From an uncultured Bacteroidota bacterium (GTDB lineage Bacteria > Bacteroidota > Ignavibacteria > UBA10030 > UBA6906), in NCBI GenBank assembly GCA_963809695.1, contig CAWEKI010000009.1:762376-826375 (forward strand): a stretch of DNA of 64,000 nt. The letters are read 5' to 3'. A program made the translations under genes and the position numbers. The notes below the pieces were generated by a model. That model searched no databases, was not told the origin of the DNA, and saw only the letters and a program-made list of their open reading frames with translations. Shown piece after piece: positions 35,337-62,909 of this stretch (positions are counted from its first letter, which is position 1; the number at the start of each line of letters is the position of its first letter).

Positions 35337-36507
35337 CTACTTCACCAGCATCATCTTCTTCAGGAAGGTCTGCTCTCCCGCCTTGAGCTGGTAGAAGTAA
35401 AGCCCGCTGCTGAGTCCGGATGCATTGAAGGACTCTTTGTAGTACCCTGCTTCTCGCACCCCATTGGCCAACGTGGCAACTTCCCGGCCCAGCACATCGA
35501 ATACCACGAGCCTGACGTGCGTGGCCACCGGCAACTGATAACTGATTACCGTTGTCGGGTTGAATGGGTTCGGATAATTCTGTTCCATGGCATAGACTTT
35601 TGGCACCGCTTGCTCTTCCACAGAAGAAGTCACCGAGGCCTGCACCGCTTCTGAGTAATTCACCGCGCCCGAACGGTCCATCTGCTTCAGCCGGTAGTAC
35701 CAGCTCTTCCCTTCGGTGTTCGCATCCGTGTAACTGTATTCCTGCGGCTCAACGGTTGTGCCGTGGCCTGCCTGGAAGCTGCCGGCAATTGTCTCAAATG
35801 GCCCCGCGGGCAGCAGTGCCCGTTGCACGTCAAAGCCCAGATTGTCCACCTCCGACAAGGTCTTCCAGTGCAACACCACGTTCGACCCGGTGACCGTGGT
35901 CGCCGTGAAGGAGGAGAGCTGGATGGGCAGCGGCACAGGATTGAGATTGACGGGAGCTGAGAGGGTCGCGCTGTTGATAATTGCTGTATTGGGGTTCATT
36001 CTGGTGGTTGGCAAAGAGTCCGATGGCATTGCTGCCCGCGGCAATTGTCAGACCGGTGCTGCCAACGGTCGAGGCGATGGTGAAATTCAACTGCACCCAG
36101 GTTGTGTAGGAGCTTGCAATGTCAAAGCCCGGAGGGTCACCGCCGCCGTTTTCATTGACGGAGCCCCCGGTGATGGCGATGCGCATGGCGCCGGCAACGG
36201 CACCCGCATTGCGGCTGTAGCCTTGCGTGCCGCTAAAGGCCCAGTTTGTGCCACTGACAAAGGTGAGCTTGGTGTTGTCGTACTGCACGTCGATGGTAGC
36301 CGAGCCCAGCGTGTTGGCTGCCGGGAGCCCGCTGCCTTTTACCTGCACGGCCACATTGAATTGCCCCCCCAGGCTGTGCTGGTTCAAAACAAGCACCAAT
36401 TGCTGCTCGATGGTCTGCGCCTGGACAACAACAGTCCCACCGCACACCAGCAGCAACACCAGGACCACGGATACCGCGGTCAGGAAGGTCGTGGAAATCG
36501 GTTTCAT
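35337..36507 (-). CDS. secreted T9SS cargo protein (FN3-like domain plus CTD), apparently frameshifted into ORFs 35830..36507 and 35337..36044
   Basis: The upstream ORF opens with signal peptide MKPISTTFLTAVSVVLVLLLVCGG and ends in low-complexity sequence. The downstream ORF ends NYPNPFNPTTVISYQLPVATHVRLVVFDVLGREVATL...YFYQLKAGEQTFLKKMMLVK. The two ORFs overlap by 215 nt in different frames. Confidence 0.6.
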
Positions 36508-36537
36508 TTGCCGTACTCCTTAAGTAGTTGGATTCAA

Positions 36538-37655
36538 TTAATTGGGCACCTGCGAGAGGGCCGCTGCGCGGAAATTCGGGTTAAAGAGATTGAAGTCCAG
36601 GCTGGTCACCTGCCCGTCGAGGTTCCAGTCACTCACTTCATAGCCGGTGGCGGCGGCTCGGAACTTCGGGTTGAACACGTTGAAGTCCAGGCTGGTCACC
36701 TGACCGTCGGCGTTGGCGTCTCCCGCGAACAGAGTGAAGCGGCCGACGACCGCTTTCATGGGCGCCGCGCCGTAAGCCGAAGTCATCAATGTGGTGAAAT
36801 CAAAACTTGCCGGAGAAGTATTGAGTGCGACCGTGGCACTGCTCATGATGGCCAGGTGATTTCGATGGCGAACCACGATGTAGTATGAGCCGGCGGGCGC
36901 GTCGAAAGCCACCCCGGCCCGTGTGGTGTCGTTGAAGCTCCGCAACGTACCGTTGGTCAACAGCCAGGCGGGAGCAAACCGCCGTACTGTCGCAGCGGCC
37001 GCGGAAGCGTTGTTGCGGATTTCGATATTCACGCTGTCCACGGCAAAGGCTGGAATTATCTGTCCAAGGAAATGCGTGCCCAGCATTCCCCCGGTTTTCA
37101 GAGTATTGTTCATGGAAGTCGTGGCAGACACGTACGGACCCTCCAGGAAGACCGTGATACCGAGCAGGGGAGTAAGCACGTGACACCGTCCCTCCGGCAT
37201 GCTTGAAGCGATGGCGTCGTTTGGGTGTCACGCAATAATTTCCGAGGTCAGCGTGAGGTTGAGGACCCAGCTGCAACCCGGTGAAGTGAATTGTAAAGAG
37301 CGTGCCACTTCCGCTCACAGCACCGGTTCCAAGGATCGCCTGGTCGACCTTTACGGCGGTGATGCACCGGGACCAGATGGTAGGTGTTAATCGCAAAACG
37401 CGATCCCACCCAGGAAGGGACCTGCTTAATGCTGTTGAGTCGCAAGACCGTCGCATCAAGACTGAGTGTCGACGTGGACTTGCGTGAAGATGTGAGACGT
37501 TGTTTACGACAATGCTCACGGCTAAACTGCTCCAGCGAGAGTAGCGTCCCGGGAGCGGGTGAGACAACGACCGTCGTCTGCGAGAATGTACCATAGAACA
37601 AGCACAAATTCAACAACAGAATGACGACGACGCGAATAACGGATCGAGTATTCAT
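36538..37655 (-). pseudogene. secreted protein with a cohesin-like middle region and a C-terminal dockerin-like pair, broken into at least 3 frames (36538..37200, 36800..37594, 37248..37655)
   Basis: Signal peptide MNTRSVIRVVVILLLNLCLFYG at 37655. Cohesin-like AILGTGAVSGSGTLFTIHFTGLQLG in the middle frame. The C-terminus DANADGQVTSLDFNVFNP...DWNLDGQVTSLDFNLFNP has two D-x-N-x-D-G-x-V-x-x-x-D calcium-loop segments 29 aa apart, which is dockerin-type spacing. Confidence 0.45.
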
Positions 37656-37698
37656 ACGGCGTACCTCCCAGGAATGTATCGTGCAGAAGCTGATGGCT

Positions 37699-38511
37699 TT
37701 ATCGTATTAATAATATTTTCATGGTGGCAGAGGCTTCCCCGGCCTCAATACGGACGAAAATTGGACCCGATGGCGCTGGCTGCCCATCATCGCCCCGGCC
37801 GTCCCACCGGATTACATGCTCTCCTTTTCCCAAATGCATGCCCTCAAGCCTGCGGACCCTCTCCCCCAACACGTTGAGCAGCTCCACCCGGACTTCGGAC
37901 GGTGCGGGCAAAGCACAGACAAAAGTCGTGGTACCATTGAACGGATTCGGATAATTTCCCACCCGCAACGTCGGGCCATGTTCTCGCTGCAGCAACCCCT
38001 TGATGCCGGCGGGCTTTCCCACCGTCACCACTGTCCCTTCATTGTTGACCGGTATGGCGGCATTTACGGTATCCCGAAGCGCACTGGCGCTGATCTGAAA
38101 CGAAGCAATTCCCGGCCGTACGCCAACAAAGCGAACCAGAGCAAGCCCCCCCGTGCCGCTTTGACCCGAAGGCCCAAGCACGGCTTCGTTCAAAACGATC
38201 TTCCCACCCGCGCTGTCGACATTGCTTGCAAAAAAGGTCGACCCGCTGAAAAACGGGAGGCGTTGCAGCGACTGAAAATGCACAAACACCGTGTCATATG
38301 TAATATCAACGCTGTATGCATGCAGATGCTGGACGTCACTGATCTCCACCACGATGATCAGGACGGAGTCCACCCCGATCTGCTCGGCAGAAGGCAAGAG
38401 GCTGAGCGTTGCTTGCTGAGCGGGGAGTATCCCGGTGCTCGCTAAAAGCAGGATCGCCATAAGCAAAACCATCGTGCATATTTTGTGCATGATGTAACCT
38501 GTCTTGAGCAC
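37699..38511 (-). CDS. cohesin-domain protein with a T9SS C-terminal sorting domain
   Basis: Signal/TM MHKICTMVLLMAILLLASTGILPAQ. Cohesin-like core YSVDITYDTVFVHFQS...GKIVLNEAVLGP...GGLALVRFVGVRPGIASFQI. CTD GNYPNPFNGTTTFVCALP...VELLNVLGERV...MKILLIR. Confidence 0.7.
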   Translation of the reverse strand: MLKTGYIMHKICTMVLLMAILLLASTGILPAQQATLSLLPSAEQIGVDSVLIIVVEISDVQHLHAYSVDITYDTVFVHFQSLQRLPFFSGSTFFASNVDSAGGKIVLNEAVLGPSGQSGTGGLALVRFVGVRPGIASFQISASALRDTVNAAIPVNNEGTVVTVGKPAGIKGLLQREHGPTLRVGNYPNPFNGTTTFVCALPAPSEVRVELLNVLGERVRRLEGMHLGKGEHVIRWDGRGDDGQPAPSGPIFVRIEAGEASATMKILLIR

Positions 38512-38682
38512 TTCCCTCTAGCAGAAAGGATCAGCGACTGCGGATGGGTGCTGACTAACAACGTGTCAGGATGACGGCAAAAATATCAAACCGGAGGCGC
38601 CAGGTGGACGGGACAGAGTCCCGTCCTACAAACAGCGACGTACAATAGTTCACACTTAAACCCAACACCTAGCACCTGACAC

Positions 38683-40938
38683 CTATTTCACCAGCAGCAT
38701 CTTTTTCACCATGTTGAATTCGCCCGCCCGCATGCGGTAGAAATAGACTCCTGTAGCCACTTTCGCGCCCCCGTCGTTCGTGCCCTTCCACTGCACGGTA
38801 TAGAACCCTGCCGGCTGCACTTCATGCACAAGCGTGGCCACCCGTTCCCCGAGCATGTTGTAGATTTCGATGTCCGTCATCGCCTGGGCAGGGACCTGAT
38901 ACTCGATCGTGGTGGTCGGATTGAACGGGTTCGGATAGTTTTGCAGCAACGCAAACACCGTTGGCTCGGTTTCGCCTGCGCCTCTGACTTTCTTCATTTC
39001 CAGCGGCGTATTGCGGCTGCCGCGGGCCTCAAAGCTTGCCAGTTGCACGCGCGGGTTTCCGGTAAACCGGAGCATCGCCACTTCTCCCGGGCGGTCGATC
39101 GCAGAGGCATCAAGCCCCATCACGGCCAGGTCCAGATACACCGTTCGTCCCTCAACCCTGCTCAGCAAGGGGACCGGCGATGCATACTGCTTCAGAAGCT
39201 CTCCCTTTTCCGCTCCGAGGAACGCACCGAATTGTCCGTTGATCTCCAGCTTCAGGCCGCGCACATCAGTCACGCCTCCGCTCAGAACGACCGGGATATT
39301 TATCTCGTTGCCGTTCGCAGCCGGAGCGCCAAGAGAAATTTCCAGCGGCTGGGACGACTGTGCTGCGGCTTTCGGTAGATAATGTCCCGCTGTCTGACCA
39401 TAGCTGATAGAGAAAATCAGGAGATCCTCAAAGTCGATCTTTCCGTCAAGCTGGGGCAGAGAGAAGATGTAATTGTCATTCGTGGGACCGAAATCGTACT
39501 TGACTTTGTATTGGGCCGAGCCGGTGTACCCCTGCACCCCCGCCCAATACGACAACGACCAGGCCGAGAGGTCCTCAAAGTCGACTCTCCCATCGCCCGT
39601 GTTCAAGTTCCCGGGCGCAGTGATATCCGCGAGGTATGCCTTCACTTCTGCCTGCATTGGAATCATATAGGGTTTTTCGTTCCCCTGCAGGATCTCGAAG
39701 TCGGCCCCGATGATCGCCACAGGACTATGCCCCGGCTTAAGCAGCGTGAAGTCCACGCGGGCAATGTAGTTGCCAAGGATGGTGGAGAAATTCCCCCCAT
39801 CGCCTCGGGTGCATTGGATTCTGACCCTGTTTGGACCGTACGGGGTTGTCACAGTTGTCGAGGGGTTATAGGCCTGCCCGGTACCGTAGAGCCCGTTAGG
39901 AGCAGCGCCGAAGGCCACGGTGCTCAATGACATCTTCGCGGCATCCCACTCGAGCGTGATGTCGGCAGATCCAAAATGCGCACCGGCTTCAGGCGCCAGG
40001 TAGACGCTCACAACCTGCGAGCCACTCCAGGACCAGTCGTCACTCCCTACATACGCAGGGCCCGCTGGCCTCCATCCATTGTTGGGATAGATCGAGCCCG
40101 GTGCGGCCACGCTTGGAGATGTCGTTCCGTACAGATGCACCGGGGTGATGGATGGCGTGAAGAAAACGAATGGTGTAAAATGATCCGTCTGGAAAGTGAA
40201 GGACGGGTGGCCGCTGAACACCGGATCGGAAGCAAGGTACGTTCCGTCCACGAGGATCCAGCTCGAGGTGACGTCGCTGAAGTAGGCCAGAGAACTTCCG
40301 GGTCCAAACCCCGCGAGGCCGTTGAGGTCCAGCCGCACCGTCGCTGCAAATGCATGATCGGGCAATGTCGAATTCACGACCAGATAGAACGGAAGACTGT
40401 CCGGAGGCATGGCCGGCAGACCGGTTGGCGGGGTGACGTACGCAATTGCGGAGATGGTCGCGTCACCCGCGGGCTTCGCCGCAAGATTGACCTTCATGTC
40501 GGTTACGCTGTTGCCGTCGACGTCCAGATTGTATTCGGACGGCCCGGTGATGAGATAGTTGTCCGGGGCAAATGTGACGCCGATCGAATGATTGCCCGTC
40601 ACGGTGGAGAAAGTGTGCGTGTTGGCCGGGTTGATCCGCACGCCATCCATCGTCAACGTGGCAACATGGTGGCCGGCAGCCGGGGTCATCGTGAACAGCT
40701 GACTGTCACCATGGTTCACTGGTACGCTCGGGCCGGGAGGAACGATGGCGCCGTTCGCGCCTGCGGTGACTGAGATAGCGTATGTATTGATCCCAAACGT
40801 CGCTTCGATGGAGCGGTTCGAGGTCACATTCGTGAAGTCGTATGACGCAATTTCGCCTTGCGATACATTGTCCACCTTGACGTCAACGACGTGATACCCC
40901 GGGTCCGGGCGTAATGGTGTAGTGCTGGTTCCCGCCAT
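38683..40938 (-). CDS. C-terminal portion of a giant surface protein: InlB-type B-repeats, conserved ~100-aa domain, cohesin-like, dockerin-like pair, T9SS CTD
   Basis: GDGRVDFEDLSAWSLSYWAG and LDGKIDFEDLLIFSISYG (Ca-loop pair). YIARVDFTLLKPGHSPVAI (cohesin-like). The C-terminus ends NYPNPFNPTTTIEYQVP...IEIYNMLGERVATLV...YFYRMRAGEFNMVKKMLLVK. The N-terminus continues the B-repeat periodicity of ORF 40883..42370 across a frame change. Confidence 0.75.
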   Translation of the reverse strand: MAGTSTTPLRPDPGYHVVDVKVDNVSQGEIASYDFTNVTSNRSIEATFGINTYAISVTAGANGAIVPPGPSVPVNHGDSQLFTMTPAAGHHVATLTMDGVRINPANTHTFSTVTGNHSIGVTFAPDNYLITGPSEYNLDVDGNSVTDMKVNLAAKPAGDATISAIAYVTPPTGLPAMPPDSLPFYLVVNSTLPDHAFAATVRLDLNGLAGFGPGSSLAYFSDVTSSWILVDGTYLASDPVFSGHPSFTFQTDHFTPFVFFTPSITPVHLYGTTSPSVAAPGSIYPNNGWRPAGPAYVGSDDWSWSGSQVVSVYLAPEAGAHFGSADITLEWDAAKMSLSTVAFGAAPNGLYGTGQAYNPSTTVTTPYGPNRVRIQCTRGDGGNFSTILGNYIARVDFTLLKPGHSPVAIIGADFEILQGNEKPYMIPMQAEVKAYLADITAPGNLNTGDGRVDFEDLSAWSLSYWAGVQGYTGSAQYKVKYDFGPTNDNYIFSLPQLDGKIDFEDLLIFSISYGQTAGHYLPKAAAQSSQPLEISLGAPAANGNEINIPVVLSGGVTDVRGLKLEINGQFGAFLGAEKGELLKQYASPVPLLSRVEGRTVYLDLAVMGLDASAIDRPGEVAMLRFTGNPRVQLASFEARGSRNTPLEMKKVRGAGETEPTVFALLQNYPNPFNPTTTIEYQVPAQAMTDIEIYNMLGERVATLVHEVQPAGFYTVQWKGTNDGGAKVATGVYFYRMRAGEFNMVKKMLLVK

Positions 40939-42370
40939 AATTCACGGTTGTGGGCCCGGGAGGAGTGATCGTCCCGTGCGAGCCTGCAGTGACCGTGATG
41001 GTAAAGGAATTGATGGTAAATGTGGCAGTAATGGACTTAGCTCCGGTCATCAGGACCGTAAGCGGATTGGTTGTTCCGGTCGCGTCGCCACTCCACCCGG
41101 TAAAGGTCCAGCCGGTTGTTGGATTCGCAGTTAACTGGACGGAAGTGTTGTAGTCATATGACCCTTGATTTGGATTCCTCGTAATGGTTCCGCTTCCGAC
41201 AACCGGTGTGGTCAGCGTATAGCTGTTGATGGCAAAATTCGCGGTGACGGTTTTGTCACCATCCATTGCGATAGTGACCGGGTTGGTCGTCCCCGTTGCG
41301 TCGCCGGTCCAGCCGGTGAATGAATATCCGGCGTTTGGAGTTGCCGTCAATTCCACGTTCTGGTTGTACCCGTAGGTCGGAAGATCTGGATCCCTGGCCA
41401 CAGTCCCGTTCGTCGCCACGATAGTCAGGTTGTATGCATTTGCAGTGAATGTGGCTGTGATGGACTTGTTGCCATCCATGGTCACAGTAAGAGGATTGGT
41501 CGACCCGGTCGCATTTCCGCTCCACCCTGTGAATGTGTAGCCAGCGGCCGCTGATGCCGTCAATCCGACTGTCGCGCCGTGGTTGTAAGAAGGCAGGTCA
41601 GGATTCTTGACCACCGACCCGCTGCCCACCGTGTTCACGGTCAGTGTATATGTCTTGAGCTTGAACGTGGCGTGAATGGTGTGTGGCGCGATAACGTTCG
41701 TGAACGGGTAGGACGTCACGGCTCCCACGGATATGCCGTCGACCAGCACGTCATCCACCTGGTAGGTTTCGTCAGGTGTAATAGTATACGTCTGGCTTCC
41801 ATTCACCGGCACTTGTGTGTCCCCCAGTGGTGAAATGGTGCCATGTGGTCCTGCCGAGGCAGTAATGGTCAATGTGCTCAGCGAGAAGGTGGCAGTGATG
41901 TTCTTGGCGGAATTCATGATCACCGTCAACGGATTCACCGTGCTGATCGTATCACCAGTCCACCCTGCGAAGACAAACCCGGAGCCCGGGTTGGCGGTAG
42001 CCAGAACCCCGCTGCCATGGTCATACGCTCCCTGGTCCGGGACCTTTGACACCGTTCCCGTCCCGGAGACCGTCACGTTGAGCGGATAGCTGTTGAGGGC
42101 AAATGAAGCCGAAATCGAGTGAGGGCCCGTGACCCCCGTGAACGTATGCGAAGTGATCGCCCCCTGCGAAACATCATCGACCAGCACATCAGCGACGTGA
42201 TATCCATAATTGGGTTCAATACTAAATGTCTGGTTTGTCCCATAGGCTACCACCACGGAACCACTTGGATCGATAGACCCATTGGCCCCGGCACTCGCGG
42301 TGATGACGGGGTTGACAGTCTGCGACGTGGTGTTCTGACTTGTGAGGTAGTTCGCGTCACCGCTGTACAC
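40883..42370 (-). CDS. middle portion of the same giant protein: about 7 tandem InlB-type B-repeat (Listeria-Bacteroides repeat) domains
   Basis: Repeated about 70-aa units Y-x-L-T-V-x-x-x-G-x-G-x-V-x-x-x-P-x-x-x-x-Y-x-x-G-x-x-V-x-L-T-A-x-x-x-x-G-Y-x-F-x-G-W-x-G-D-x-x-G-x-x-N-P-x-T-x-x-M-x-x-x-K-x-x-T-A-x-F. Confidence 0.75.
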   Translation of the reverse strand: MYSGDANYLTSQNTTSQTVNPVITASAGANGSIDPSGSVVVAYGTNQTFSIEPNYGYHVADVLVDDVSQGAITSHTFTGVTGPHSISASFALNSYPLNVTVSGTGTVSKVPDQGAYDHGSGVLATANPGSGFVFAGWTGDTISTVNPLTVIMNSAKNITATFSLSTLTITASAGPHGTISPLGDTQVPVNGSQTYTITPDETYQVDDVLVDGISVGAVTSYPFTNVIAPHTIHATFKLKTYTLTVNTVGSGSVVKNPDLPSYNHGATVGLTASAAAGYTFTGWSGNATGSTNPLTVTMDGNKSITATFTANAYNLTIVATNGTVARDPDLPTYGYNQNVELTATPNAGYSFTGWTGDATGTTNPVTIAMDGDKTVTANFAINSYTLTTPVVGSGTITRNPNQGSYDYNTSVQLTANPTTGWTFTGWSGDATGTTNPLTVLMTGAKSITATFTINSFTITVTAGSHGTITPPGPTTVNYGGNQHYTITPGPGVSRR

Positions 42371-43389: not shown

Positions 43390-43457
43390 CTACCCCCCTA
43401 CCCCCCCTCCCTCTCTTACAGCAAGAGAGGGAGGGGGGACCAAGGGGGGAGGGTGAG

Positions 43458-47627: not shown

Positions 47628-47631
47628 TGCT

Positions 47632-51215: not shown

Positions 51216-51330
51216 GATGTTCCGGGCGGCTGTCTGGCTGACGCACCAGTTTGTCTGCGCGGTGAATTTCGCCAGTACGATATCACTGGTGGTATAGTTC
51301 TGCGCATCGGGCAGGGCAACGATCGTGAAG

Positions 51331-53577: not shown

Positions 53578-53592
53578 GGGTGCTGGTGTTGG

Positions 53593-54218: not shown

Positions 54219-54540
54219 ATTGTTCCCTTAGGAATTTTTCGTCTGGTGACCAGCTCAGACTGCTGGTGCGGGAATCTGGAGCCTGGATTCTACGTTCATC
54301 GCGCCCTCTGCAGCGTCAGGACGCGATGAATGGAGAATACAGAATGTCCTCTAAAATCAGCAGGCAATAATTACACTCGTTACTACTGCCCCCCCCTCTT
54401 TCTTCAATCCTCCCTTTTCCATTTTTCTTCCCTCCCCCATTTTCCATCCTCCGAGGGCAGAAGGAAGAGTGAGGAGGGGAGTATAGTTATTCCCCCTCCT
54501 GCACTCCGCCTTCTAACCCCTATCACCTAGCAACTATCAC

Positions 54541-56178: not shown

Positions 56179-59100
56179 CCAGCGTGATCAGAGCCACAAA
56201 GCTGTTCGGCGGCATGGTCGAGGAGATCTCAAACCATATCGGAACGTAGCTCGCACCCGCAGGCGGGTTCGGGAATGTCGGCGGACCGCCGGGCAACGCC
56301 TCGTGCCGCGTGATTGTGACGCTGCCGCCTCCAGGAGGAAGCGTGCTGAGATTCACAATGGCCATCGAACCCGGGAAGTTCACGTCGGTGTTGGCCTGCG
56401 TGATCACCTTGGTCTCGCTCTCGCTTGCCGCAGCATGCGTGGCAAGACGGAATGCCCACATCGCGTATCCCTTGGTGTTCTGGGTCCCGCTCCCGAGGGT
56501 GTTATCCCATTCGGATGTAACCGAGAACGAACCATCCGCTCCAGGATTGACGCCCGTCCACCGCGCAACATAGCCGTTCACGGTGTTGTAGCCGACGGAG
56601 AACGAAACGGATGCCGGCGAATTCACCACAACGCCCGCGCTGCTCGCATTGGAAAATGCCGTCGCCCCGGAGATAGTGACCTTTGTATAGCGTGCATTCA
56701 CATATGTGGGCTCGTTGCGATTCGACGTTAACGCGATGTCGTATTCCTTTGCCGGATCAAGATTGTTGAACGTAATGGTGTTTTGCCAGTTCGTGGCATC
56801 CAGCTCGATGGTACGGACCTGGTCCACGATGACCGCGCCGGCGGGGCCGAACAGCTTTGCCGCGTCCGTGCCTGCATTTGCAGGCCCGCCATTACTGGTC
56901 AGCGCGTCATAACCGCCGACGGTGCTGCCTGTCACCGTTGCCGGGAGTGTCGCTCCCGTGGCACTGTCCTTCAATGCGCCATTCACGGTGGTGTAGAGGT
57001 GCCGGGTAACAAATGACGCGTTGCCGTCACCCGCGACTCCGTTCATGTCGTTGAATGCCACGAACTCTGTCGGCTGCGCCGAAGCCTTTGCGCCATACAG
57101 GCGCATGTTGAAGCCGAGGTCGCTGCTCGTGGCGTTGATCTGATGGATCTCCACCGCCAGCACGTTCGCGCCGGCGACCAGAGCCGAAGTGGCAAGAGGC
57201 GGAGAGACAAACGTGGCCGTCTCATCCGCATCGCCCACGGTGGCAGATGCCAGGGTACTGTAGTTGACTGTTCCGGCAGGCATGTTGTCGCGCCAGATCT
57301 CCGTGCCGTTCAGATAAATTACCGCGCCGTCATCACGGATCAGATCGATCCCGAGCGTAGCAAACTGGCTCGGGTCCGTAACGCTGAAGGACGTGCGGAA
57401 GTAGATGGTGGGGTAGCGTGCGTTCGTCGGCCCGCCGTTGACGAGCGTGGCCTGAGTGTCTCCGAACCCGAGCCGCGCAGGGCCGGAAGCCCAGCTGGCG
57501 TCATTGAAGGCGGGTGCCCGCCAGGCTGTCCCCTGGTCCACTCCGGTGTCCAGGTATTTCCACGTGGCTCCAAGGGGAACGAATGTGGTGGTGTCTCCCG
57601 CGAAGATCGATGTGAACGTGGCGGTGACCGACTTGTTGCTGGTCATCGTGATGTTGGTGGGATTCGCGATACCGGTCAAAGCACCGGACCAGCCGGTGAA
57701 TTCAAACCCCGGCGATGCTGTTGCTGTCAGTTGCACAACGGCGTCGGGATCATACCCCGCCAGGTTGGGGTTCTTCACTACCGAACCGCTGCCTACCACA
57801 TTCACGGCCAGGAAGTACTTGCCTTCCAGCTTGGCCAGTTGCATGGTGTCAATCAGAGTCCCGCCACTGGTGATAGAGTAGAAGCGGAAGGTAAGAGTTG
57901 TGTCGGTGGCAATGGCATACACCGTTCCGTAATTGGCATTGTAGCGAACCACGCTTCCTGTGGTCGGTGTGCCAAAGCTGTAGAGATTGTTCCCGCCGCT
58001 GCCACAGATGATGTACGGGATAGACAGGCCGTCCCCGTTCACATCGCGTACAATGCGTTCGTAGTGGTGCTCATGCCCGCCGAGAACCGCATCTGCGCCC
58101 CACGCCTCAAACGGCCACGCCATTTCGGGAGTTGGCCCGTGCGTCGTGCCCGAGGAATATGGAGGCTGATGGAAGTAGACCACTTTCCATGGTTCGGTGG
58201 CGGCGGCCAGGCGCGCCTGCAGCCACTGCCCTTGCACGGAGCCGCTTGTGCGGCCGTTCGGTTCGTTCGGATCGGAATCCAATGCGAAGAAATGCACCGG
58301 CCCCATCACGAAGTCATAATAGCGCTCGTTGCCGGAGCTGTTGGTAAAGCCTACCCCAGGGAGGGTAAAGTAGTCAATGTACGGCTGCATGTTGGCGGCA
58401 TCCCATTCATGGTTGCCCGGCGAAGGGAAGAACCGGTTCGTTGGAGAGCCGGCCCCGTAGCTTCCCGTGTACGCTCCAATGAGATTGTGGAAGTATTGCC
58501 CGACATTGGCATCCATGGTCGAAGCCGCCCCGTTGGGATAGTTGTTATCACCCATGGTGACCATCATATCGGGGTTGAGCGACGTTATGAGATTGGCGAC
58601 GTTGGCCTCGTTCGTGTTGTTGATGCCAAAATCGCCGAGCGCCGTAAATGTGAGCGGCGCGCCAGGAGGCCCGGGCACAAATGTCGCCGTTACCGTTTTG
58701 TTGCTGTTCATCGCAATGCTCTGGGGATTGGTCGTCCCCGTTATGGCGCCAGACCATGCGCTGAAGACATTCCCGTAGAACGGCACTGCCGTCAGTTGGA
58801 CGACGGACCCTGAATCATACTGTGCAAGGCTTGGGAGTCTGGTAACTGTACCGTTCCCCGTGATATTCACCGCCAGGGTAAACTGAGTAAGGGTTGTGCC
58901 GGCCATCAGGGCCTGAATTTCAGGCTGAGTGAGTGCCTCATTGTAAATCCGCACGTCATCCAGCCGGCCCTGGTACCGTTCACCCCAGGTTTCGTCAGCT
59001 CCGAGCCAGATAGCGCGGCCGCGGTTTGGAATGGTGCCTCCCTGATACGGTGTTGAAGCCGTCAGGGTTCCATTGATGTAGAATTTCATGGTCGTGCCGT

Positions 59101-59191
59101 CGTACGTGGCGGCAATGTGGTACCACGTTTGCGGCTGCAGAATCATACCCCCTGAGACGGTCCTCAATGGCCTGCATCTGTGAATCCCCAT
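55919..59191 (-). CDS. 1090-aa middle portion of the same gene: LamG tail, InlB B-repeat, metallophosphoesterase domain, B-repeats, a 125-aa beta-sandwich domain, a further uncharacterised region
   Basis: Metallophosphoesterase FTALGDFGINNTNEANVANLITSLNPDMMVTMGDNNYP...FFPSPGNHEWD...LGGHEHHYER. The repeat domain reads TFVPLGATWKYLDTGVDQGTAWRAPAFNDASWASGPARLGFGD...YPTIYFRTSF...LIRDDGAVIYLNGTEIWRDNMPAG...LAVEIHQ. It lacks its own signal peptide and begins in the middle of a LamG domain. Confidence 0.75.
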   Translation of the reverse strand: MGIHRCRPLRTVSGGMILQPQTWYHIAATYDGTTMKFYINGTLTASTPYQGGTIPNRGRAIWLGADETWGERYQGRLDDVRIYNEALTQPEIQALMAGTTLTQFTLAVNITGNGTVTRLPSLAQYDSGSVVQLTAVPFYGNVFSAWSGAITGTTNPQSIAMNSNKTVTATFVPGPPGAPLTFTALGDFGINNTNEANVANLITSLNPDMMVTMGDNNYPNGAASTMDANVGQYFHNLIGAYTGSYGAGSPTNRFFPSPGNHEWDAANMQPYIDYFTLPGVGFTNSSGNERYYDFVMGPVHFFALDSDPNEPNGRTSGSVQGQWLQARLAAATEPWKVVYFHQPPYSSGTTHGPTPEMAWPFEAWGADAVLGGHEHHYERIVRDVNGDGLSIPYIICGSGGNNLYSFGTPTTGSVVRYNANYGTVYAIATDTTLTFRFYSITSGGTLIDTMQLAKLEGKYFLAVNVVGSGSVVKNPNLAGYDPDAVVQLTATASPGFEFTGWSGALTGIANPTNITMTSNKSVTATFTSIFAGDTTTFVPLGATWKYLDTGVDQGTAWRAPAFNDASWASGPARLGFGDTQATLVNGGPTNARYPTIYFRTSFSVTDPSQFATLGIDLIRDDGAVIYLNGTEIWRDNMPAGTVNYSTLASATVGDADETATFVSPPLATSALVAGANVLAVEIHQINATSSDLGFNMRLYGAKASAQPTEFVAFNDMNGVAGDGNASFVTRHLYTTVNGALKDSATGATLPATVTGSTVGGYDALTSNGGPANAGTDAAKLFGPAGAVIVDQVRTIELDATNWQNTITFNNLDPAKEYDIALTSNRNEPTYVNARYTKVTISGATAFSNASSAGVVVNSPASVSFSVGYNTVNGYVARWTGVNPGADGSFSVTSEWDNTLGSGTQNTKGYAMWAFRLATHAAASESETKVITQANTDVNFPGSMAIVNLSTLPPGGGSVTITRHEALPGGPPTFPNPPAGASYVPIWFEISSTMPPNSFVALITLDVSGISGFSSTSRLLGHSTGGSAWTAMPGTYNAGTHTFTFTTMHFSEFGFANPAGSVFELYVDTAPADTHGKRDISEYGMGRADGL

Positions 59192-62100
59192 TGAGGTCTA
59201 TATAAAAGGCACATTGGTAGGCTACTGGCATATAGACAAGCCGGCGAGCATGAAGCACGAAGTCTATCCAGCCGTTCTCGCCGGCGGCGGTGGCGCGTGA
59301 GAACAGGGCAACTGCGTCTGTAGTCAGGGCATCAGCGTTCATCCAGCATGCAAACGTGATCTGGTTCGTGAACGTGAGCGAACTGCTGGGTGGTATACTC
59401 ACGACCCCGGTGGTGCCATTCAAGGCAAGTGCACCTCCTATTTTGCCCGTTCCCCAGGTTCCACCTGTGACGGCGCCTGTGTTGCCGTAGCCGGAGGCAT
59501 CGTTCGCGACGGTGCCATTCGTCTCATTAAACCTCCAGTGACCCACGAGACTTGCCGTCGGATTGACAAATGTTGCCGTGATGCTCTTTGTTGCACCCAT
59601 CGTCACATTGACAGGGTTCGTAGTGCCGATCAGGTCGCCCGACCAGCCGGTGAATTGCCAACCTGCACTAGGAATAGCCGTCAGTTGTACGACGGTCCCG
59701 GGATTATATTGGGCCTGATCAGGCACTTTTGTGACACTGCCCTGGCCGATGACATTAACCGTGAGTGTTTTCGGGCCGGTTGCCGTTGTGCCAAAGAGCC
59801 GCATGTCGAAGCCGAGGTCGCCGCTCGTGGCGTTGATCTGATGCACTTCCACTGCAAGGACATTCGTGCCGGCAATCAGGGCAGAAGTGCCGAAGGACGG
59901 CGAAGAGAAGATGGCCGTCTCGTTCGCGCCATCGACCGCGGCCGCAGCCAATGTTGCGAACGATATTGTTCCGCCCGGCATGTTGCTGCGCCAGACCTCC
60001 GTCCCGTTCAAGTAAATCACAGCACCGTCATCCCGGATCAGGTCAATTCCCAGGCTCGTGTAGATGCTTGGGTCGGACACGCCAAACGAGGTCCGGAAGT
60101 ATAATGTGGGATTGTCGTTGCCCTCTGAGCCGCTATTGATGGTTGTTGCCTGCGTGTCACCGAAGCCGAGCCGTGCAGGACCGGTCGGCCACGGGGCACT
60201 ATTGAAACCCGGGGCCCTCCAGGCTGTCCCCAGGTCCACCCCCCAGTCCCGGTAACTCCAAATTGCGCCAAAGGGAACGATGGTGGCGATATCGCCCGCG
60301 GGGATCTGCGTGAACGTCGCCGTGATGTTCTTGTCGGCGGTCATCGTGATCGATGCAGGGTTGGTCGACCCGGTCAGGTCACCCGACCAGCCGGCGAAGA
60401 CCCAGCCGGGGTTCGGCGTCGCCGTCAGCTGCACAATAGACCCGGTATTGTATTGTGCCTGGTCCGGCAGTTTTGTCACGCTTCCCTGCCCGACAACACC
60501 GACCGTGAGTGTCCTGGGAATCCCCGACGCAGTGAGTCCGTAGAGCCGCAGATCGAGTCCGAGATCAGTGCTCGTGAGGTTAATCTGATGTACTTCCACA
60601 GCCACCACATTGGTACCGGTAACCAGAGCCGCAGTGCTGAAGGATGGCGAATTAAAGACGGCCGTTTCGTCGGCGCCGCCCACCGTGGCCGCAGCCAGAG
60701 TGGCATGCGTGATCGTTCCCGCGGGCATGTTGCTTCGCCAGACTTCGGTGCCGTTCAGGTAGATCACCGCACCGTCATCGCGGATCAGGTTGATTCCCAT
60801 GCTCGTGTAGAGCGCGGGGTTTGCCACATTGAACGACGTGCGGAAATAGATGGTGGGGTAGACGTTGCCACTCGGACCGATATTGATGCTCGTCGCCTCG
60901 AGGGATGGATCGCCCCCGCCGATACGCGCGGGTCCGGAAGGCCAGGCAGCATCATCAAAGGCCGTTGCCTGCCAGCCTGCGCCGGGCACGGCGTTGTTGT
61001 TGCTATACTTCCACATTGCCCCAAACGGCACGACCACCGCCGTGTCACCGACAGGCAGCTGAGTAAACGTGGCGGTGACGGTCTTGTTGCTGGTCATCGT
61101 AATGGTGGTGGGATTCGTCGAGCCGCTCAGATCACCCGACCAGCCGGAGAACTGGTAGCCCGCCAGCGCATTGGCGGTCAGCGTGACGACCGCATTCGGA
61201 TCATAGAGCGACTGGAGGGGGTTCTTGGTGACGGTGCCGCTCCCGACCACGTTGGTTGTCAAGGAGTATACGCCGGTTGACCCGCCCTCGGTGATGCTGA
61301 AGTACGCATTGTCCGCCATGCCTTCCGTAGAATTGAAGTTCTTGTACGCAGGCCACATAGCCGCGGCAGAGAAGTACTTCGGATCAGGCACGCGTGAAGA
61401 AGCCATGGTATCTGTCCTCATCGTACCGCTCGCCACGAGGGCACCCACATTGCCGAGCGCATCGATGGCGTTCAAAGTCACAGCGATGCTCGCCGACGAT
61501 GCCGTCAGCTTGGTTATCTCCGCCCGTATGCGATACCATGCGCTGTTCGCCAACGTCGGGAGACTTGCAATCCGAACCCTGATGTTGCTACTGGTGCCGC
61601 TTACGTTGTCCCAGTACGTCTCAATGCCATTCCCGCCGCTGGTGTTGTCCAGCTGCACGCCAAAATGCGCGTCGGAGCTCGTGCTGTTGTTGAGGATGGT
61701 CCAGCACACCCGGTCATCGTCGAGAAGACCGGCAGGGCTCGTCTGAAAATCCATCCCCAGGGCCACCTTCTGCAACTCGGTATCGTTCCAGATGAACTCG
61801 TGGTCAAGCCATGTGGCGTTGTACTGGGCCCCGTTGAGTCCCCGGCTGCCTGCCACACCATTGCTTGCGCCGACGGTGGGACCGATGCCGTCCGTATACC
61901 AGCCGGATTGCGCGCTGACCGGCTGCCCCACGGTGAACGTGTCAAAGGTCTCGAGGTATTCAGGGTCCACCGGCGCGGTCAGTGTCATCTCATCGAGGAC
62001 CGTTGAGCCGCCGGAGACGGAGTAGAATTTGAAATTCAGTGTTGAGGTGGTTGCCTCGGCAATGACGGCACCGTAGTCTGCACTGTAGCGATACTGGCTC

Positions 62101-62909
62101 CCTTCGGTCGGCGTTCCAAAGGCGTAGATGCTCGATCCGCTGTTGCCGATGGTGATATAGGGCATCTGCACGCCATCGGTGTTGTCGTCCCGCACGATGC
62201 GTTCGTATACGTGGTTGTGGCCTTCAAGTACAGCCGATGCGCCCCACGCTTCGAACGGCCAACGCATTTCAGTTGTTGCAGCGTGTGTGGTACAGGAAGT
62301 GTACGGCGGGTGATGGAAGTAGACGACCTTCCATGGCTCCGTGGCGGCAGCCAGTTGCGCCTGCAGCCACAGCGCCTGAACGGAGCTGCTTGTGATTCCG
62401 TTCGGTTCCCTTGGATCCGAGTTGATGACGAAAAAGTGGACCGGTCCCACGACATAATCATAATAGCGTTCATTGCCCGAGGTGTTGCTCGAGGTAATCC
62501 CCGCGCCCGGCAGCGTGAAGTAGCTGTAGTACGGTGCGCCCAGGCTGCCGTCGTCCAGGTCGTGGTTCCCCATCGAGGGGAAGAACTTGTTGGTCGCTGC
62601 TCCCGGCGGATAGGCTCCCGTGTAGGCCGCGATATAGTTATGGTAGTACTTCCCAACGTTGTTATCTATGGTCGTTGCCGATCCGCTGGGATAGTTGTTG
62701 TCCCCCGTGGTGATGATGATATCGGGGGTGTGTGATGTGACAATGTTCGCGACATTCTGCTCATTGGTGGTGTTCAAGCCATAGTCGCCAATCGCCGCGA
62801 AACGCACCGTTTGTGCCGGGGCGAGGCCGGCGTTGAACACAAGAAGCAGCAGGACCGCACAGAGCGACCACATGCTCATTCGGTACAACGGGGAAGCACA
62901 TCGTTCCAT
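58995..62909 (-). CDS. 1304-aa N-terminal portion of the same gene: signal peptide, metallophosphoesterase domain, uncharacterised domain, B-repeats and three copies of the 125-aa beta-sandwich domain interleaved with B-repeats, then a LamG domain
   Basis: Signal peptide MSMWSLCAVLLLLVFNAGLAPAQ. Metallophosphoesterase TVRFAAIGDYGLNTTNEQNVANIVTSHTPDIIITTGDNNYP...GNHDLD...LEGHNHVYER. The 125-aa domain occurs three times with AVEVHQ endings. The terminal LamG is cut by a frameshift near 59200 and continues in ORF 55919..59191 (WYHIAATYDGTTMKFYINGTL). Confidence 0.75.
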   Translation of the reverse strand: MERCASPLYRMSMWSLCAVLLLLVFNAGLAPAQTVRFAAIGDYGLNTTNEQNVANIVTSHTPDIIITTGDNNYPSGSATTIDNNVGKYYHNYIAAYTGAYPPGAATNKFFPSMGNHDLDDGSLGAPYYSYFTLPGAGITSSNTSGNERYYDYVVGPVHFFVINSDPREPNGITSSSVQALWLQAQLAAATEPWKVVYFHHPPYTSCTTHAATTEMRWPFEAWGASAVLEGHNHVYERIVRDDNTDGVQMPYITIGNSGSSIYAFGTPTEGSQYRYSADYGAVIAEATTSTLNFKFYSVSGGSTVLDEMTLTAPVDPEYLETFDTFTVGQPVSAQSGWYTDGIGPTVGASNGVAGSRGLNGAQYNATWLDHEFIWNDTELQKVALGMDFQTSPAGLLDDDRVCWTILNNSTSSDAHFGVQLDNTSGGNGIETYWDNVSGTSSNIRVRIASLPTLANSAWYRIRAEITKLTASSASIAVTLNAIDALGNVGALVASGTMRTDTMASSRVPDPKYFSAAAMWPAYKNFNSTEGMADNAYFSITEGGSTGVYSLTTNVVGSGTVTKNPLQSLYDPNAVVTLTANALAGYQFSGWSGDLSGSTNPTTITMTSNKTVTATFTQLPVGDTAVVVPFGAMWKYSNNNAVPGAGWQATAFDDAAWPSGPARIGGGDPSLEATSINIGPSGNVYPTIYFRTSFNVANPALYTSMGINLIRDDGAVIYLNGTEVWRSNMPAGTITHATLAAATVGGADETAVFNSPSFSTAALVTGTNVVAVEVHQINLTSTDLGLDLRLYGLTASGIPRTLTVGVVGQGSVTKLPDQAQYNTGSIVQLTATPNPGWVFAGWSGDLTGSTNPASITMTADKNITATFTQIPAGDIATIVPFGAIWSYRDWGVDLGTAWRAPGFNSAPWPTGPARLGFGDTQATTINSGSEGNDNPTLYFRTSFGVSDPSIYTSLGIDLIRDDGAVIYLNGTEVWRSNMPGGTISFATLAAAAVDGANETAIFSSPSFGTSALIAGTNVLAVEVHQINATSGDLGFDMRLFGTTATGPKTLTVNVIGQGSVTKVPDQAQYNPGTVVQLTAIPSAGWQFTGWSGDLIGTTNPVNVTMGATKSITATFVNPTASLVGHWRFNETNGTVANDASGYGNTGAVTGGTWGTGKIGGALALNGTTGVVSIPPSSSLTFTNQITFACWMNADALTTDAVALFSRATAAGENGWIDFVLHARRLVYMPVAYQCAFYIDLNGDSQMQAIEDRLRGYDSAAANVVPHCRHVRRHDHEILHQWNPDGFNTVSGRHHSKPRPRYLARS

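What the first reader, a model, noticed from the sequence alone, without database searches (positions are those of the whole stretch)
35337..62909. About 28-kb array of giant T9SS surface proteins sharing a cohesin-like, dockerin-like, CTD module; plus a stand-alone dockerin protein and stand-alone cohesin proteins
At least five proteins (C-termini at 38683, 43458, 48513, 54541 and, smaller, 37699) end in the same roughly 450-600-aa module. The module has a conserved ~100-aa domain (PAGGGSV...HAFxATV...HFTxFxF), a cohesin-like beta-sandwich (YIARVxFTLLKPGHS), a pair of dockerin-like Ca-binding loops (GDGxIDFxDLSxWS...DGKIDFEDLxIFS) and the T9SS sorting domain. The variable N-terminal parts mix LamG, FN3, InlB-type B-repeats, DNRLRE-like, IPT and metallophosphoesterase domains. 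Gene 36538..37655 carries a canonical-spacing dockerin without a CTD. Genes 37699 and 35337 carry cohesin or FN3 with a CTD. This looks like a cellulosome-style cohesin-dockerin assembly anchored through T9SS rather than sortase/SLH, and possibly an extracellular phosphoesterase complex.
Basis: partly seen in the sequence, partly recalled or inferred. Interest (0 to 1): 0.65.

Follow-up and report, generated by a model that had tools for sequence, protein, structure and literature searches.

The report
Shared cohesin/dockerin-like pedestal on T9SS surface proteins
Seven neighbouring genes of an uncultured Ignavibacteria-like bacterium encode secreted surface proteins, four of them giants that carry different binding or phosphatase heads on one common 600-residue tail built from cohesin-like and calcium-loop (dockerin-like) parts; that tail is a widespread but unnamed cassette, and whether it docks proteins together as in a cellulosome is not shown.

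Summary
Four minus-strand genes (G4-G7) end in the same ~600-aa cassette (38-50% identity). Its order is an unknown beta-sandwich X, cohesin-like sandwich A, a duplicated Ca-loop/helix segment (DocL), cohesin-like sandwich B, and a T9SS type A sorting domain.

Cohesin identity is supported by a Pfam hit above threshold on the G4 N-terminus, profile-profile matches of 92-96% for A and B, and Foldseek matches to solved cohesins. G2 carries a true dockerin (Pfam above threshold) and no sorting domain.

DocL is not a Pfam dockerin. It gives only sub-threshold matches to EF-hand, NCBIfam 'GC-type dockerin' and 'flexitail' models.

An exhaustive profile search finds DocL in 1258 protein clusters (531 at E<=1e-10). 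It almost always sits in the same Coh-DocL-Coh-CTD order, under many different heads. I therefore read the cassette as a generic T9SS-cargo pedestal. Docking in trans is possible but unshown.

No CAZymes or CBMs were found. G7 has two purple-acid-phosphatase-like domains.

T9SS-anchored cohesin-dockerin systems have already been inferred in Cloacimonadota.

Caveat: at least 14 single-base frameshifts interrupt six of the seven genes.

The parts
35340..36519 (-). G1: signal peptide, cohesin-like domain (36040-36417), FN3-like domain, T9SS type A sorting domain (35340-35576). One frameshift.
   Evidence: Pfam Cohesin 20.3 bits, below the 24.1 cut-off. Por_Secre_tail 40.2 bits and TIGR04183 43.6 bits. 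Coordinates; note that G1N was one of the five sequences the 'refcoh' HMM was built from, so that hit is by construction. Frame change f2->f0.
36541..37706 (-). G2: signal peptide, cohesin broken across alternating frames (37259-37580), middle beta domain, canonical dockerin (36586-36726). No sorting domain. At least 4 frameshifts.
   Evidence: Pfam Dockerin_1 26.3 bits, above the 22.9 cut-off. Best PDB matches are dockerins 2vn5_B and 1daq. Cohesin HMM positions 18-34, 34-63 and 73-105 fall in alternating frames. Only ~30 nt separate its stop from the G1 start, so there is no room for a sorting domain.
37702..38517 (-). G3: the only intact gene. Signal peptide, cohesin (38014-38409), T9SS sorting domain (37702-37953).
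   Evidence: BLASTP 2e-10 to the G4 N-terminal cohesin. FlgD_ig 36.4 bits. TIGR04183 17.4 bits, below its cut-off of 23. No Pfam Cohesin hit at E<=0.1.
38686..43389 (-). G4: signal peptide, Pfam cohesin (42855-43263), IPT-like and Big_3_5 Ig domains, at least 6 InlB-type B-repeats, then the cassette. Three frameshifts.
   Evidence: Pfam Cohesin 36.0 bits (cut-off 24.1), Big_3_5 46.4 bits, Flg_new_2 223 bits. Frames f2->f0->f1->f2.
43461..48309 (-). G5: signal peptide, two Laminin_G_3 domains, DNRLRE, fn3, AIR9-type Ig, B-repeat, then the cassette. One frameshift, inside the first LamG domain.
   Evidence: Junction at about 47630: RIWN|RALSQSEI with one extra T.
48516..54227 (-). G6: N-terminus unclear. 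DNRLRE, Laminin_G_3, a metallophosphoesterase-like region (motifs DAQ / GD / GNHD, seen by eye), then the cassette. At least 3 frameshifts.
   Evidence: No Pfam Metallophos hit at E<=0.1, so the esterase call here is inference from motifs only.
54544..62909 (-). G7: signal peptide, Metallophos 1 (62205-62804), three copies of an unnamed ~170-aa domain, B-repeats, Laminin_G_3, Metallophos 2 (58061-58651), then the cassette. Two frameshifts.
   Evidence: Metallophos 50.1 and 53.0 bits. Best PDB matches are purple acid phosphatases, E 4e-7.
40126..40533 (-). Cassette domain X (beta-sandwich of unknown family) in G4. The other copies are at 44910-45320, 49914-50291 and 55994-56380.
   Evidence: Family HMM hits, E 1e-42 to 1e-47. 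No Pfam or PDB sequence match. hhalign against cohesins gives 0.1%.
39634..40113 (-). Cassette cohesin-like sandwich A (CohA) in G4. The other copies are at 44412-44900, 49461-49901 and 55492-55968.
   Evidence: hhalign against the window's N-terminal cohesins: probability 91.9%, P 7e-7. Pfam Cohesin 16-20 bits, sub-threshold. The AF2 model matches solved cohesins.
39382..39645 (-). Cassette DocL in G4: a duplicated Ca-loop + helix segment that follows CohA without a linker. The other copies are at 44151-44423, 49206-49466 and 55234-55503.
   Evidence: The two halves are internal repeats (hhalign 96.8%, P 2e-10). Helices 322-330 and 372-381 follow the loops in the model.
38971..39357 (-). Cassette cohesin-like sandwich B (CohB) in G4. 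The other copies are at 43746-44132, 48807-49184 and 54829-55209.
   Evidence: hhalign against the window's N-terminal cohesins: probability 96.0%, P 5e-9. HMM coordinates.
38686..38937 (-). T9SS type A C-terminal sorting domain of G4. The other copies are at 43461-43712, 48516-48767 and 54544-54795.
   Evidence: TIGR04183 35-36 bits (cut-off 23). FlgD_ig 30-43 bits. Por_Secre_tail 25-31 bits.

Best explanation
This is a cluster of genes for Sec- and T9SS-exported surface proteins of an uncultured Ignavibacteria-like member of the Bacteroidota.

Four giant proteins put different heads on one conserved C-terminal pedestal. The heads are lectin-like LamG and DNRLRE domains, FN3 and Ig domains, InlB B-repeats, and purple-acid-phosphatase-like esterases. 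The pedestal is X sandwich, then cohesin-like sandwich A fused directly to a duplicated Ca-loop/helix unit, then a ~20-residue linker, then cohesin-like sandwich B, then a type A sorting domain.

Shown here: the domain identities, their order, and the fact that the same Coh-DocL-Coh-CTD order recurs in hundreds of protein clusters under unrelated heads.

Inferred: the sorting domain takes the protein through the T9SS, and the protein is then kept at the cell surface, as in characterised T9SS cargo. The pedestal acts mainly in cis as a calcium-stiffened stalk next to the anchor, holding the head away from the outer membrane. Its cohesin and dockerin-like surfaces may additionally let neighbours associate.

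The small proteins G1 and G3 (cohesin + sorting domain) and G2 (cohesin + true dockerin, no sorting domain) are possible accessory partners.
For: - The module is shared by four paralogues.
- The AF2 model of the module is confident (pLDDT 86, pTM 0.74) and has five domains in this order.
- Solved cohesins match the model at probability 1.0, TM 0.62-0.69.
- CohA and CohB are homologous to the window's Pfam-supported cohesins.
- DocL is an internal duplication of loop + helix. It has invariant Asp at six positions.
- DocL starts immediately after the last strand of CohA. Its pLDDT is 81-93 in context but only 65 when folded alone. This suggests it leans on its neighbours.
- The exhaustive profile search found 1258 clusters, 531 of them at E<=1e-10.
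- Among the 150 best, almost all non-fragment proteins keep [X]-Coh-DocL-CohB-CTD. DocL never appears as a free terminal tag on an enzyme.
- The heads are diverse: Beta_helix in 12 of 35 sampled, plus NosD, GDSL lipase, GH16, PAP_N, PhoD_N and cadherin/FG-GAP.
- In the three relatives examined, 20-kb stretches showed one complete cassette each in L081 and L082, plus a weak extra DocL-like hit in L081 and a divergent partial match in L001, rather than an array.
- Sorting domains score above the curated thresholds.
Against: - No coordinates or error maps were available, so the cis packing of DocL is inferred only from confidence values.
- The locus also holds stand-alone cohesin+CTD proteins and a canonical dockerin protein. 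This looks like more than a passive stalk.
- One relative has four tandem DocL-CohB units. That could serve multivalent docking.
- Calcium binding is untested, and the classical loop positions 1 and 3 are not conserved.
- T9SS core genes were not seen in the window.
- At least 14 frameshifts leave open whether these particular copies are expressed.
Confidence: 0.5

Rival explanations
1. Trans docking. The cassette's dockerin-like unit and G2's true dockerin bind cohesins of other proteins (CohB, the G4 N-terminal cohesin, G1, G3). This would build a calcium-dependent multi-protein complex or daisy-chain lattice on the outer membrane, anchored by T9SS instead of SLH or sortase. It would include the phosphatases of G6 and G7.
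For: - Twelve cohesin-type domains and five dockerin-type units lie in one 28-kb locus.
- G2 has a Pfam-positive dockerin and no sorting domain, so it would need a partner to stay on the cell.
- G1 and G3 resemble single-cohesin anchoring scaffoldins.
- A relative has 4x(DocL-CohB).
- A similar T9SS-CTD scaffoldin with dockerin-bearing enzymes has been inferred in Cloacimonadota (PMC8542988).
Against: - DocL fails the Pfam Dockerin_1 test.
- hhalign against three canonical dockerins gives 1.4%.
- The isolated DocL model has no Foldseek match.
- DocL and cohesins always sit in the same chain, in a fixed order.
- The relatives examined carry a single cassette gene in the 20 kb read.
- G2 has only a Sec signal. 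In a diderm it is unclear how it would reach the surface.
- No binding data of any kind exist.
Confidence: 0.3
2. Decaying pseudogene array. The locus is real DNA but no longer functional. The frameshifts are genuine mutations, and six of the seven genes are dead.
For: - At least 14 frame changes lie in 27.6 kb.
- None was detected among the genes checked in the preceding 35 kb. There, large genes cover their Pfam models end to end, and the small ORFs checked are complete single-domain genes.
Against: - Every disruption is a frame change. No in-frame stop is needed at any of the nine junctions where two open frames overlap.
- All 10 junctions outside G2 shift in the same +1 direction, consistent with one extra base each; an extra base was located directly at four of them.
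- The conserved motifs of all four cassettes are intact.
- A relative from a 'contig_NNNN'-style assembly shows the same kind of fragmentation: one frame break inside CohA, and gene calls of 535+321+690+357 aa.
- This pattern fits consensus insertion errors at a strain-variable locus better than neutral decay.
Confidence: 0.12
3. Polysaccharide-degrading cellulosome proper: scaffoldin, dockerin-tagged glycoside hydrolases and a CBM.
For: Cohesin and dockerin domains are present.
Against: Pfam and NCBIfam scans of all seven genes found no glycoside hydrolase, polysaccharide lyase, carbohydrate esterase or CBM. The only enzymes are metallophosphoesterases.
Confidence: 0.03

Closest known systems
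Clostridial cellulosome cohesin-dockerin pairs (type I/II; for example C. thermocellum CipA with its X-dockerin dyad and SLH-anchored single-cohesin proteins)
   Same: Cohesin-fold sandwiches are present (Foldseek matches to 4ums, 2vn5_A, 1g1k, 5nrm and others). So is a duplicated Ca-loop + helix unit. A beta-sandwich lies directly in front of the dockerin-like unit, as in X-Doc dyads. Small cohesin + anchor proteins sit in the same locus.
   Different: The anchor is a T9SS type A sorting domain of a diderm, not SLH or sortase. The Ca-loop unit fails Pfam Dockerin_1, has about 50 rather than about 33 residues between its two loops, and lacks conserved ligands at loop positions 1 and 3. Cohesin-like and dockerin-like parts are in one chain in a fixed order. 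There are no CAZymes or CBMs.
Non-cellulosomal cohesins and dockerins (Peer et al. 2009, as cited in PMC8542988; A. fulgidus cohesin 2xdh; C. perfringens GH84 cohesin 2w1n/2jh2; dockerins in rumen Bacteroidetes, PMC6487960)
   Same: Cohesin and dockerin modules occur outside cellulose degradation, attached to varied enzymes and adhesins. 2w1n, 2xdh and 2jh2 are among the structural matches.
   Different: None of those descriptions that I found covers a conserved Coh-DocL-Coh cassette placed directly before a T9SS sorting domain.
Cellulosome-like system inferred in Cloacimonadota 'Ca. Stygibacter' (Williams et al. 2021, PMC8542988)
   Same: The organism belongs to the FCB group. A cohesin-bearing protein has a T9SS C-terminal domain for surface attachment, and dockerin-bearing proteins are encoded. 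The idea of a T9SS-anchored cohesin-dockerin assembly is therefore already published.
   Different: There, a 3,755-aa scaffoldin with tandem cohesins and CBM2/CBM3 is separate from enzymes with C-terminal dockerins. Here every large protein carries its own cohesin-like and dockerin-like parts plus its own sorting domain, and the heads are lectin-like or phosphatase domains.
NCBIfam NF041520 'flexitail' and NF041540 'GC-type dockerin' domains
   Same: DocL aligns to flexitail over positions 30-105 of 107 in 23 of 28 segments (best E 9e-7). It aligns to the GC-type dockerin model in 24 of 28 (best E 5e-6). G2's true dockerin hits the same GC-type model at 18.1 bits.
   Different: In the 11 segments whose scores were printed, all are below the curated cut-offs (17-30 bits against 40, and 14-23 against 29). 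By their names, those domains are C-terminal tails, whereas DocL is internal. I found no paper on either family.
Characterised T9SS type A cargo (for example P. gingivalis gingipains; PorU, PDB 6za2)
   Same: A C-terminal ~80-aa Ig-like sorting domain. The cassette profile's best PDB sequence matches are the PorU C-terminal domain and the FlgD Ig domain.
   Different: The ~500 residues in front of the sorting domain form a conserved four-domain unit. None of the Pfam or NCBIfam models scanned here reaches its cut-off on that unit.

Membership tests
Cohesin (Pfam PF00963) | Score at or above the Pfam gathering threshold (24.1 bits) | tested here: inconclusive
   Met by the G4 N-terminal domain (36.0 bits). 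Not met by G1 (20.3), by CohA of G4 and G7 (16.3 and 20.3), by G3 (no hit) or by any CohB. Ten of 32 family members hit Cohesin at E<=0.1, best 1.7e-8.
Cohesin (Pfam PF00963) | Profile-level homology to accepted cohesins | tested here: met
   hhalign of CohA and CohB against the window's N-terminal cohesins gives 91.9% (P 7e-7, 98 columns) and 96.0% (P 5e-9, 107 columns). The reference alignment includes the Pfam-positive G4 domain and the N-terminal cohesin-like domain of P0013. Controls X and CTD give 0.1-0.2%. G3 against G4N: BLASTP 2e-10.
Cohesin (Pfam PF00963) | Cohesin beta-sandwich fold as in solved structures | tested here: met
   The AF2 model (pLDDT 86) matches many solved cohesins at probability 1.00, TM (target) 0.62-0.69 and rmsd 3-4.4 A. 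The tool does not say which of the two sandwiches aligned.
Cohesin (Pfam PF00963) | Binds a dockerin | not testable with these tools
   No multimer prediction and no experiment was available.
Dockerin type I (Pfam PF00404) | Score at or above the Pfam gathering threshold (22.9 bits) | tested here: inconclusive
   G2 C-terminus: met (26.3 bits), with best PDB matches to dockerins. Cassette DocL: not met. Only 1 of 28 segments hits, at E 0.2, whereas EF-hand_1 hits 15 of 28.
Dockerin type I (Pfam PF00404) | Tandem duplication of a Ca-binding loop followed by a helix | tested here: met
   The two DocL halves align at 96.8% (P 2e-10). Model helices 322-330 and 372-381 follow the DG-x-I-D-F-x-D-L loops. 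Departures: the repeat spacing is about 50 residues, and loop positions 1 and 3 are not conserved. Invariant Asp residues 11-16 residues upstream may substitute for them (my reading).
Dockerin type I (Pfam PF00404) | Dockerin fold as in solved structures | tested here: inconclusive
Dockerin type I (Pfam PF00404) | Profile-level homology to canonical dockerins | tested here: not met
   hhalign of DocL against G2 plus two C. cellulolyticum dockerins gives 1.4% over 17 columns. The reference alignment was very small.
T9SS type A cargo (TIGR04183 / PF18962) | C-terminal sorting domain above the curated cut-off | tested here: met
   TIGR04183 scores 35.3-43.6 bits (cut-off 23) in G1, G4, G5 and G6. 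In G7, Por_Secre_tail scores 31.3 bits. G3 is below threshold on TIGR04183 (17.4), but FlgD_ig scores 36.4.
T9SS type A cargo (TIGR04183 / PF18962) | T9SS machinery (porK/L/M/N, sprA, porU, porV) in the same genome | not testable with these tools
   None was seen among the window's other genes. The 831,696-bp source contig could not be retrieved.
Cellulosome | Dockerin-tagged carbohydrate-active enzymes and a CBM-bearing multi-cohesin scaffoldin | tested here: not met
   No GH, PL, CE or CBM family was found in any of the seven genes.
NCBIfam flexitail (NF041520) / GC-type dockerin (NF041540) | Score at or above the curated cut-off (40 / 29 bits) | tested here: not met
   In the 11 DocL segments whose scores were printed, the best are 29.7 and 23.0 bits. 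The matches are widespread: 23 and 24 of 28 segments.
Purple-acid-phosphatase-like metallophosphoesterase | Metallophos domain, with closest solved relatives being PAPs | tested here: met
   G7 has two Metallophos domains at 50.1 and 53.0 bits. For the first, the best PDB matches are 2bq8 and 1war, E 4e-7. Catalytic activity was not tested.

The most novel reading that the evidence does not exclude
The Coh-DocL-Coh-CTD cassette is an undescribed self-associating anchoring module of T9SS cargo. The dockerin-like unit of one molecule would bind, with calcium, the cohesin-like sandwich of a neighbour or of the small cohesin+CTD proteins. Unrelated enzymes and adhesins would then be knitted into a surface lattice. 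That would be a diderm, T9SS-based counterpart of the cellulosome principle, present in hundreds of protein families of Ignavibacteria, Calditrichia and allied uncultured lineages.
Probability: 0.2. Interest if true: 0.7.

Novelty: new variant of a known kind. Interest (0 to 1): 0.5.

Why it matters
T9SS cargo are usually described as 'functional domain + Ig-like domain + sorting domain'. Here a four-domain, ~500-residue unit in front of the sorting domain is conserved in 1258 protein clusters under many different heads. None of the Pfam or NCBIfam models scanned reaches its cut-off on that unit.

If it is a stalk, it explains how large surface enzymes of poorly known FCB-group bacteria are presented. 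It would also give annotators a new domain set.

If it docks in trans, it would extend cohesin-dockerin assembly to the outer membrane of diderm bacteria and to functions such as phosphate scavenging. It would also offer new orthogonal binding pairs for protein engineering.

Tried and rejected
- HMMER profiles of the module against all PDB sequences found only FlgD and PorU sorting-domain matches. No cohesin or dockerin was found.
- Folding DocL alone gave a poor model (pLDDT 65) with zero Foldseek matches.
- The word-indexed search with the DocL alignment returned only 14 short fragments. The exhaustive search superseded it, and also showed that the first estimate of family size (31 proteins) was far too low.
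- Both collection scans (genome contigs with the module alignment; metagenome contigs with G3) were swamped by the ubiquitous NYPNPFN sorting-domain motif. They gave almost no cassette-specific loci.
- The source contig could not be fetched by exact protein look-up.
- Consensus promoter and terminator scans were at chance level.
- I suspected that fragmented-looking short ORFs upstream were also frameshifted. Pfam showed three of them to be complete small genes (glyoxalase, thioredoxin, MpsC) and gave no sign of a split domain in the others, so that idea was dropped.
- 'The Ca loops are chance EF-hand look-alikes' was rejected as a full explanation. The unit is a conserved internal duplication with six invariant Asp residues in hundreds of clusters.


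Full report
**Anatomy**

The interval 35340..62909 holds seven genes, all on the minus strand. Stop-free segments in the three minus frames show that six of the seven are split by frame changes. I stitched them as follows:
- G1, 35340-36519
- G2, 36541-37706
- G3, 37702-38517 (intact)
- G4, 38686-43389
- G5, 43461-48309
- G6, 48516 to about 54227
- G7, 54544-62909

G1-G5 and G7 start with plausible Sec signal peptides. The start of G6 is unclear.

**The shared module**

The C-terminal ~600 residues of G4, G5, G6 and G7 align end to end at 38-50% identity, with more than 130 invariant columns. This is not chance.

An AlphaFold2 model of the G5 copy, built on 32 homologues, is confident (mean pLDDT 86, pTM 0.74). 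It resolves five units:
- a beta-sandwich X (residues 1-137)
- beta-sandwich A (about 171-302)
- a two-helix segment (305-385; helices 322-330 and 372-381)
- a low-confidence linker (386-400)
- beta-sandwich B (401-519)
- the sorting domain (532-618)

HMMs built from these units place all four copies in window coordinates.

**Are the sandwiches cohesins?**

Pfam Cohesin is above threshold only on the N-terminal domain of G4 (36.0 bits). It is sub-threshold on G1 and on sandwich A of G4 and G7. HMMER profiles of the module find no cohesin in PDB sequences.

More sensitive tests agree with each other:
- hhalign of sandwiches A and B against the locus's N-terminal cohesins gives 91.9% (P 7e-7) and 96.0% (P 5e-9). 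The X and CTD controls give 0.1-0.2%.
- Foldseek of the model returns many solved cohesins at probability 1.00 and TM 0.62-0.69. These include the non-cellulosomal ones of A. fulgidus and C. perfringens.
- G3's domain matches the G4 cohesin at BLASTP 2e-10.

I accept both sandwiches as divergent cohesin homologues.

**Is the Ca-loop segment a dockerin?**

G2's C-terminus is one. Pfam Dockerin_1 scores 26.3 bits against a cut-off of 22.9, the spacing is canonical at 33 residues, and the best PDB hits are C. cellulolyticum and C. thermocellum dockerins.

The cassette segment (DocL) is different.
- Its two halves are clear internal repeats, GDGxIDFxDLxxWSxSY and DGKIDFEDLxIFSISY (hhalign 96.8%, P 2e-10).
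- Each half is followed by a helix, which is the dockerin/F-hand layout.
- Against this, Pfam Dockerin_1 hits 1 of 28 segments (E 0.2), whereas EF-hand_1 hits 15 of 28.
- hhalign against three canonical dockerins gives 1.4%.
- The segment folded alone is poorly predicted and has no Foldseek match.
- NCBIfam gives consistent sub-threshold matches to 'GC-type dockerin' (24 of 28, best E 5e-6) and 'flexitail' (23 of 28, best E 9e-7, covering 30-105 of 107 positions).

My verdict is that DocL is a divergent member of the dockerin-like EF-hand-pair class, not a member of Pfam Dockerin_1.

**How common is the cassette, and what does it sit on?**

The word-indexed search suggested a tiny family of 31 proteins. 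The exhaustive HMMER scan of 1.84 billion cluster representatives corrected this: 1258 representatives at E<=1e-3, 531 at E<=1e-10 and 47 at E<=1e-30.

In the best 150, my domain HMMs find the order [X]-Coh-DocL-CohB-CTD almost without exception. The eight 'DocL only' hits are mostly short proteins, probably fragments. One protein has four tandem DocL-CohB units.

A spread of 35 full-length members carries very different heads:
- right-handed beta-helix (12 members) and NosD (4)
- GDSL lipases and GH16
- purple-acid-phosphatase and PhoD N-terminal domains
- cadherin/FG-GAP adhesin repeats, LamG and LTD

None of the 35 has Dockerin_1 at E<=1e-5.

Named relatives come from Ignavibacteriae, Bacteroidetes, Calditrichia and WOR-3 MAGs. 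In the three relatives whose DNA I read, 20-kb stretches held one complete cassette each in L081 and L082, with a weak extra DocL-like hit in L081 and a divergent partial match in L001, rather than an array.

**Mechanism**

The fixed co-linearity, the absence of a linker between sandwich A and DocL, and the drop of DocL confidence from 81-93 in context to 65 alone all point the same way. The cassette looks like a built-in unit next to the T9SS anchor. I read it as a calcium-stiffened pedestal that presents varied heads. This is my best explanation (0.5).

These are two small cohesin+CTD proteins, a cohesin+true-dockerin protein without a sorting domain, and an extra N-terminal cohesin on G4. 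Nothing here shows binding, however. G2 also has only a Sec signal and no obvious route across the outer membrane.

A true polysaccharide cellulosome is contradicted by the domain content. There is no CAZyme and no CBM.

The phosphoesterase idea is partly right. G7 has two Metallophos domains, and the best PDB matches of the first are purple acid phosphatases. G6 has the motifs but no Pfam hit.

**Organism and context**

GatA from the window is identical to a protein on an 831,696-bp NCBI/ENA contig. Its named relatives, at about 73-74% identity, are Bacteroidetes/Bacteroidota and Ignavibacteriae MAGs.

Upstream genes are housekeeping and envelope genes. They include another T9SS-CTD protein, an OmpA/TSP3 protein, and a nucleotide-sugar cluster that abuts the array. 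No T9SS core gene lies in the window, and the rest of the genome could not be reached.

**Frameshifts**

I count at least 14 frame changes:

| Gene | Frame changes |
|---|---|
| G1 | 1 |
| G2 | at least 4 |
| G4 | 3 |
| G5 | 1 |
| G6 | at least 3 |
| G7 | 2 |

- All ten outside G2 go in the same direction, consistent with one extra base each.
- At the four junctions narrow enough to pin down, the extra base is in a short run or in no run at all: GGG(G), C(C), AAC(T)AGA, GCG(T)GCC.
- No in-frame stop is required at any of the nine junctions where two open frames overlap.
- In the 35 kb upstream I found no frameshift. Large genes cover their Pfam models end to end, and the small ORFs checked are complete single-domain genes.

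An indel-only, one-direction pattern with intact motifs fits consensus insertion errors at a strain-variable locus better than gene decay. The uneven distribution remains unexplained, and only reads can settle it.

**Comparison with what is known**

Cohesin and dockerin modules outside cellulosomes are long known (Peer et al. 2009, as cited in PMC8542988). Dockerins occur in rumen Bacteroidetes (PMC6487960). A T9SS-CTD-anchored cohesin scaffoldin with dockerin-tagged enzymes has been inferred for Cloacimonadota (PMC8542988).

What I could not find described is the conserved Coh-DocL-Coh cassette in front of a type A sorting domain. I therefore class the finding as a new variant of a known kind. 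It is of moderate interest, with a more interesting but unproven docking reading.

Noticed in passing
window 35340-62909, against 1-35300: At least 14 single-base frame changes interrupt six of the seven array genes. All 10 outside G2 shift in the same +1 direction, and none needs an in-frame stop. No frameshift was found in the 35 kb upstream. This is probably insertion error at a strain-variable locus, but the clustering is unexplained.
   Followed up: partly
window 36803-37609 (G2 N-terminal cohesin): The cohesin of G2 is spread over alternating frames: HMM positions 18-34, 34-63 and 73-105 in frames 1, 0 and 1. That is at least 4 frame changes in about 350 nt, far denser than anywhere else in the array.
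   Followed up: partly
window 27619-35136: A nucleotide-sugar gene cluster directly abuts the array. It encodes a PglF-like dehydratase, a DegT aminotransferase, a UDP-GlcNAc 2-epimerase, and two Polysacc_synt_2/epimerase proteins that resemble the CapE/CapF/CapG (FnlA-C) trio. It could make an LPS or glycan to which T9SS cargo is attached. This is speculation from adjacency only.
   Followed up: no
window 57092-57595, 59775-60287, 60540-61061 (G7): Three copies of an unnamed ~170-aa domain (motifs W-KY...GxxW...FDDxxWxxGPARxG...YFRTSF...IRDDGAVIYLNGTEVWR...AVEVHQ). It has no Pfam or NCBIfam match at the thresholds used.
   Followed up: no
window 16307-17407: A gene for a bacterial eRF1-like protein (baeRF family 10 plus eRF1 domain 3) lies next to an SPFH/Band 7 gene.
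   Followed up: no
window 5211-8030: An OmpA-family outer-membrane protein with eight bacterial TSP3 calcium-binding repeats is followed by another small T9SS type A sorting-domain protein (6918-8030). The window's cargo genes are therefore not confined to the array.
   Followed up: no
window 21961-27401: Four tRNA genes: Gln-CTG, Glu-CTC, Arg-ACG and Arg-TCG. There are no other Rfam families in the window.
   Followed up: yes
P0167 (2234 aa) and P0027 (871 aa), relatives: P0167 has four tandem DocL-CohB units before its sorting domain, under an FG-GAP/cadherin head. P0027 (WOR-3) shows the Ca-loop motif twice, by eye. This suggests that the repeat unit is 'cohesin-like sandwich + Ca-loop pair'.
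   Followed up: partly
L082 5347-11074 (relative, contig_15511, 2.15 Mb): The cassette-bearing beta-helix gene of this relative is also called as four pieces (535, 321, 690 and 357 aa), with a frame break inside CohA. Fragmentation of these long genes therefore recurs in another long assembly.
   Followed up: partly
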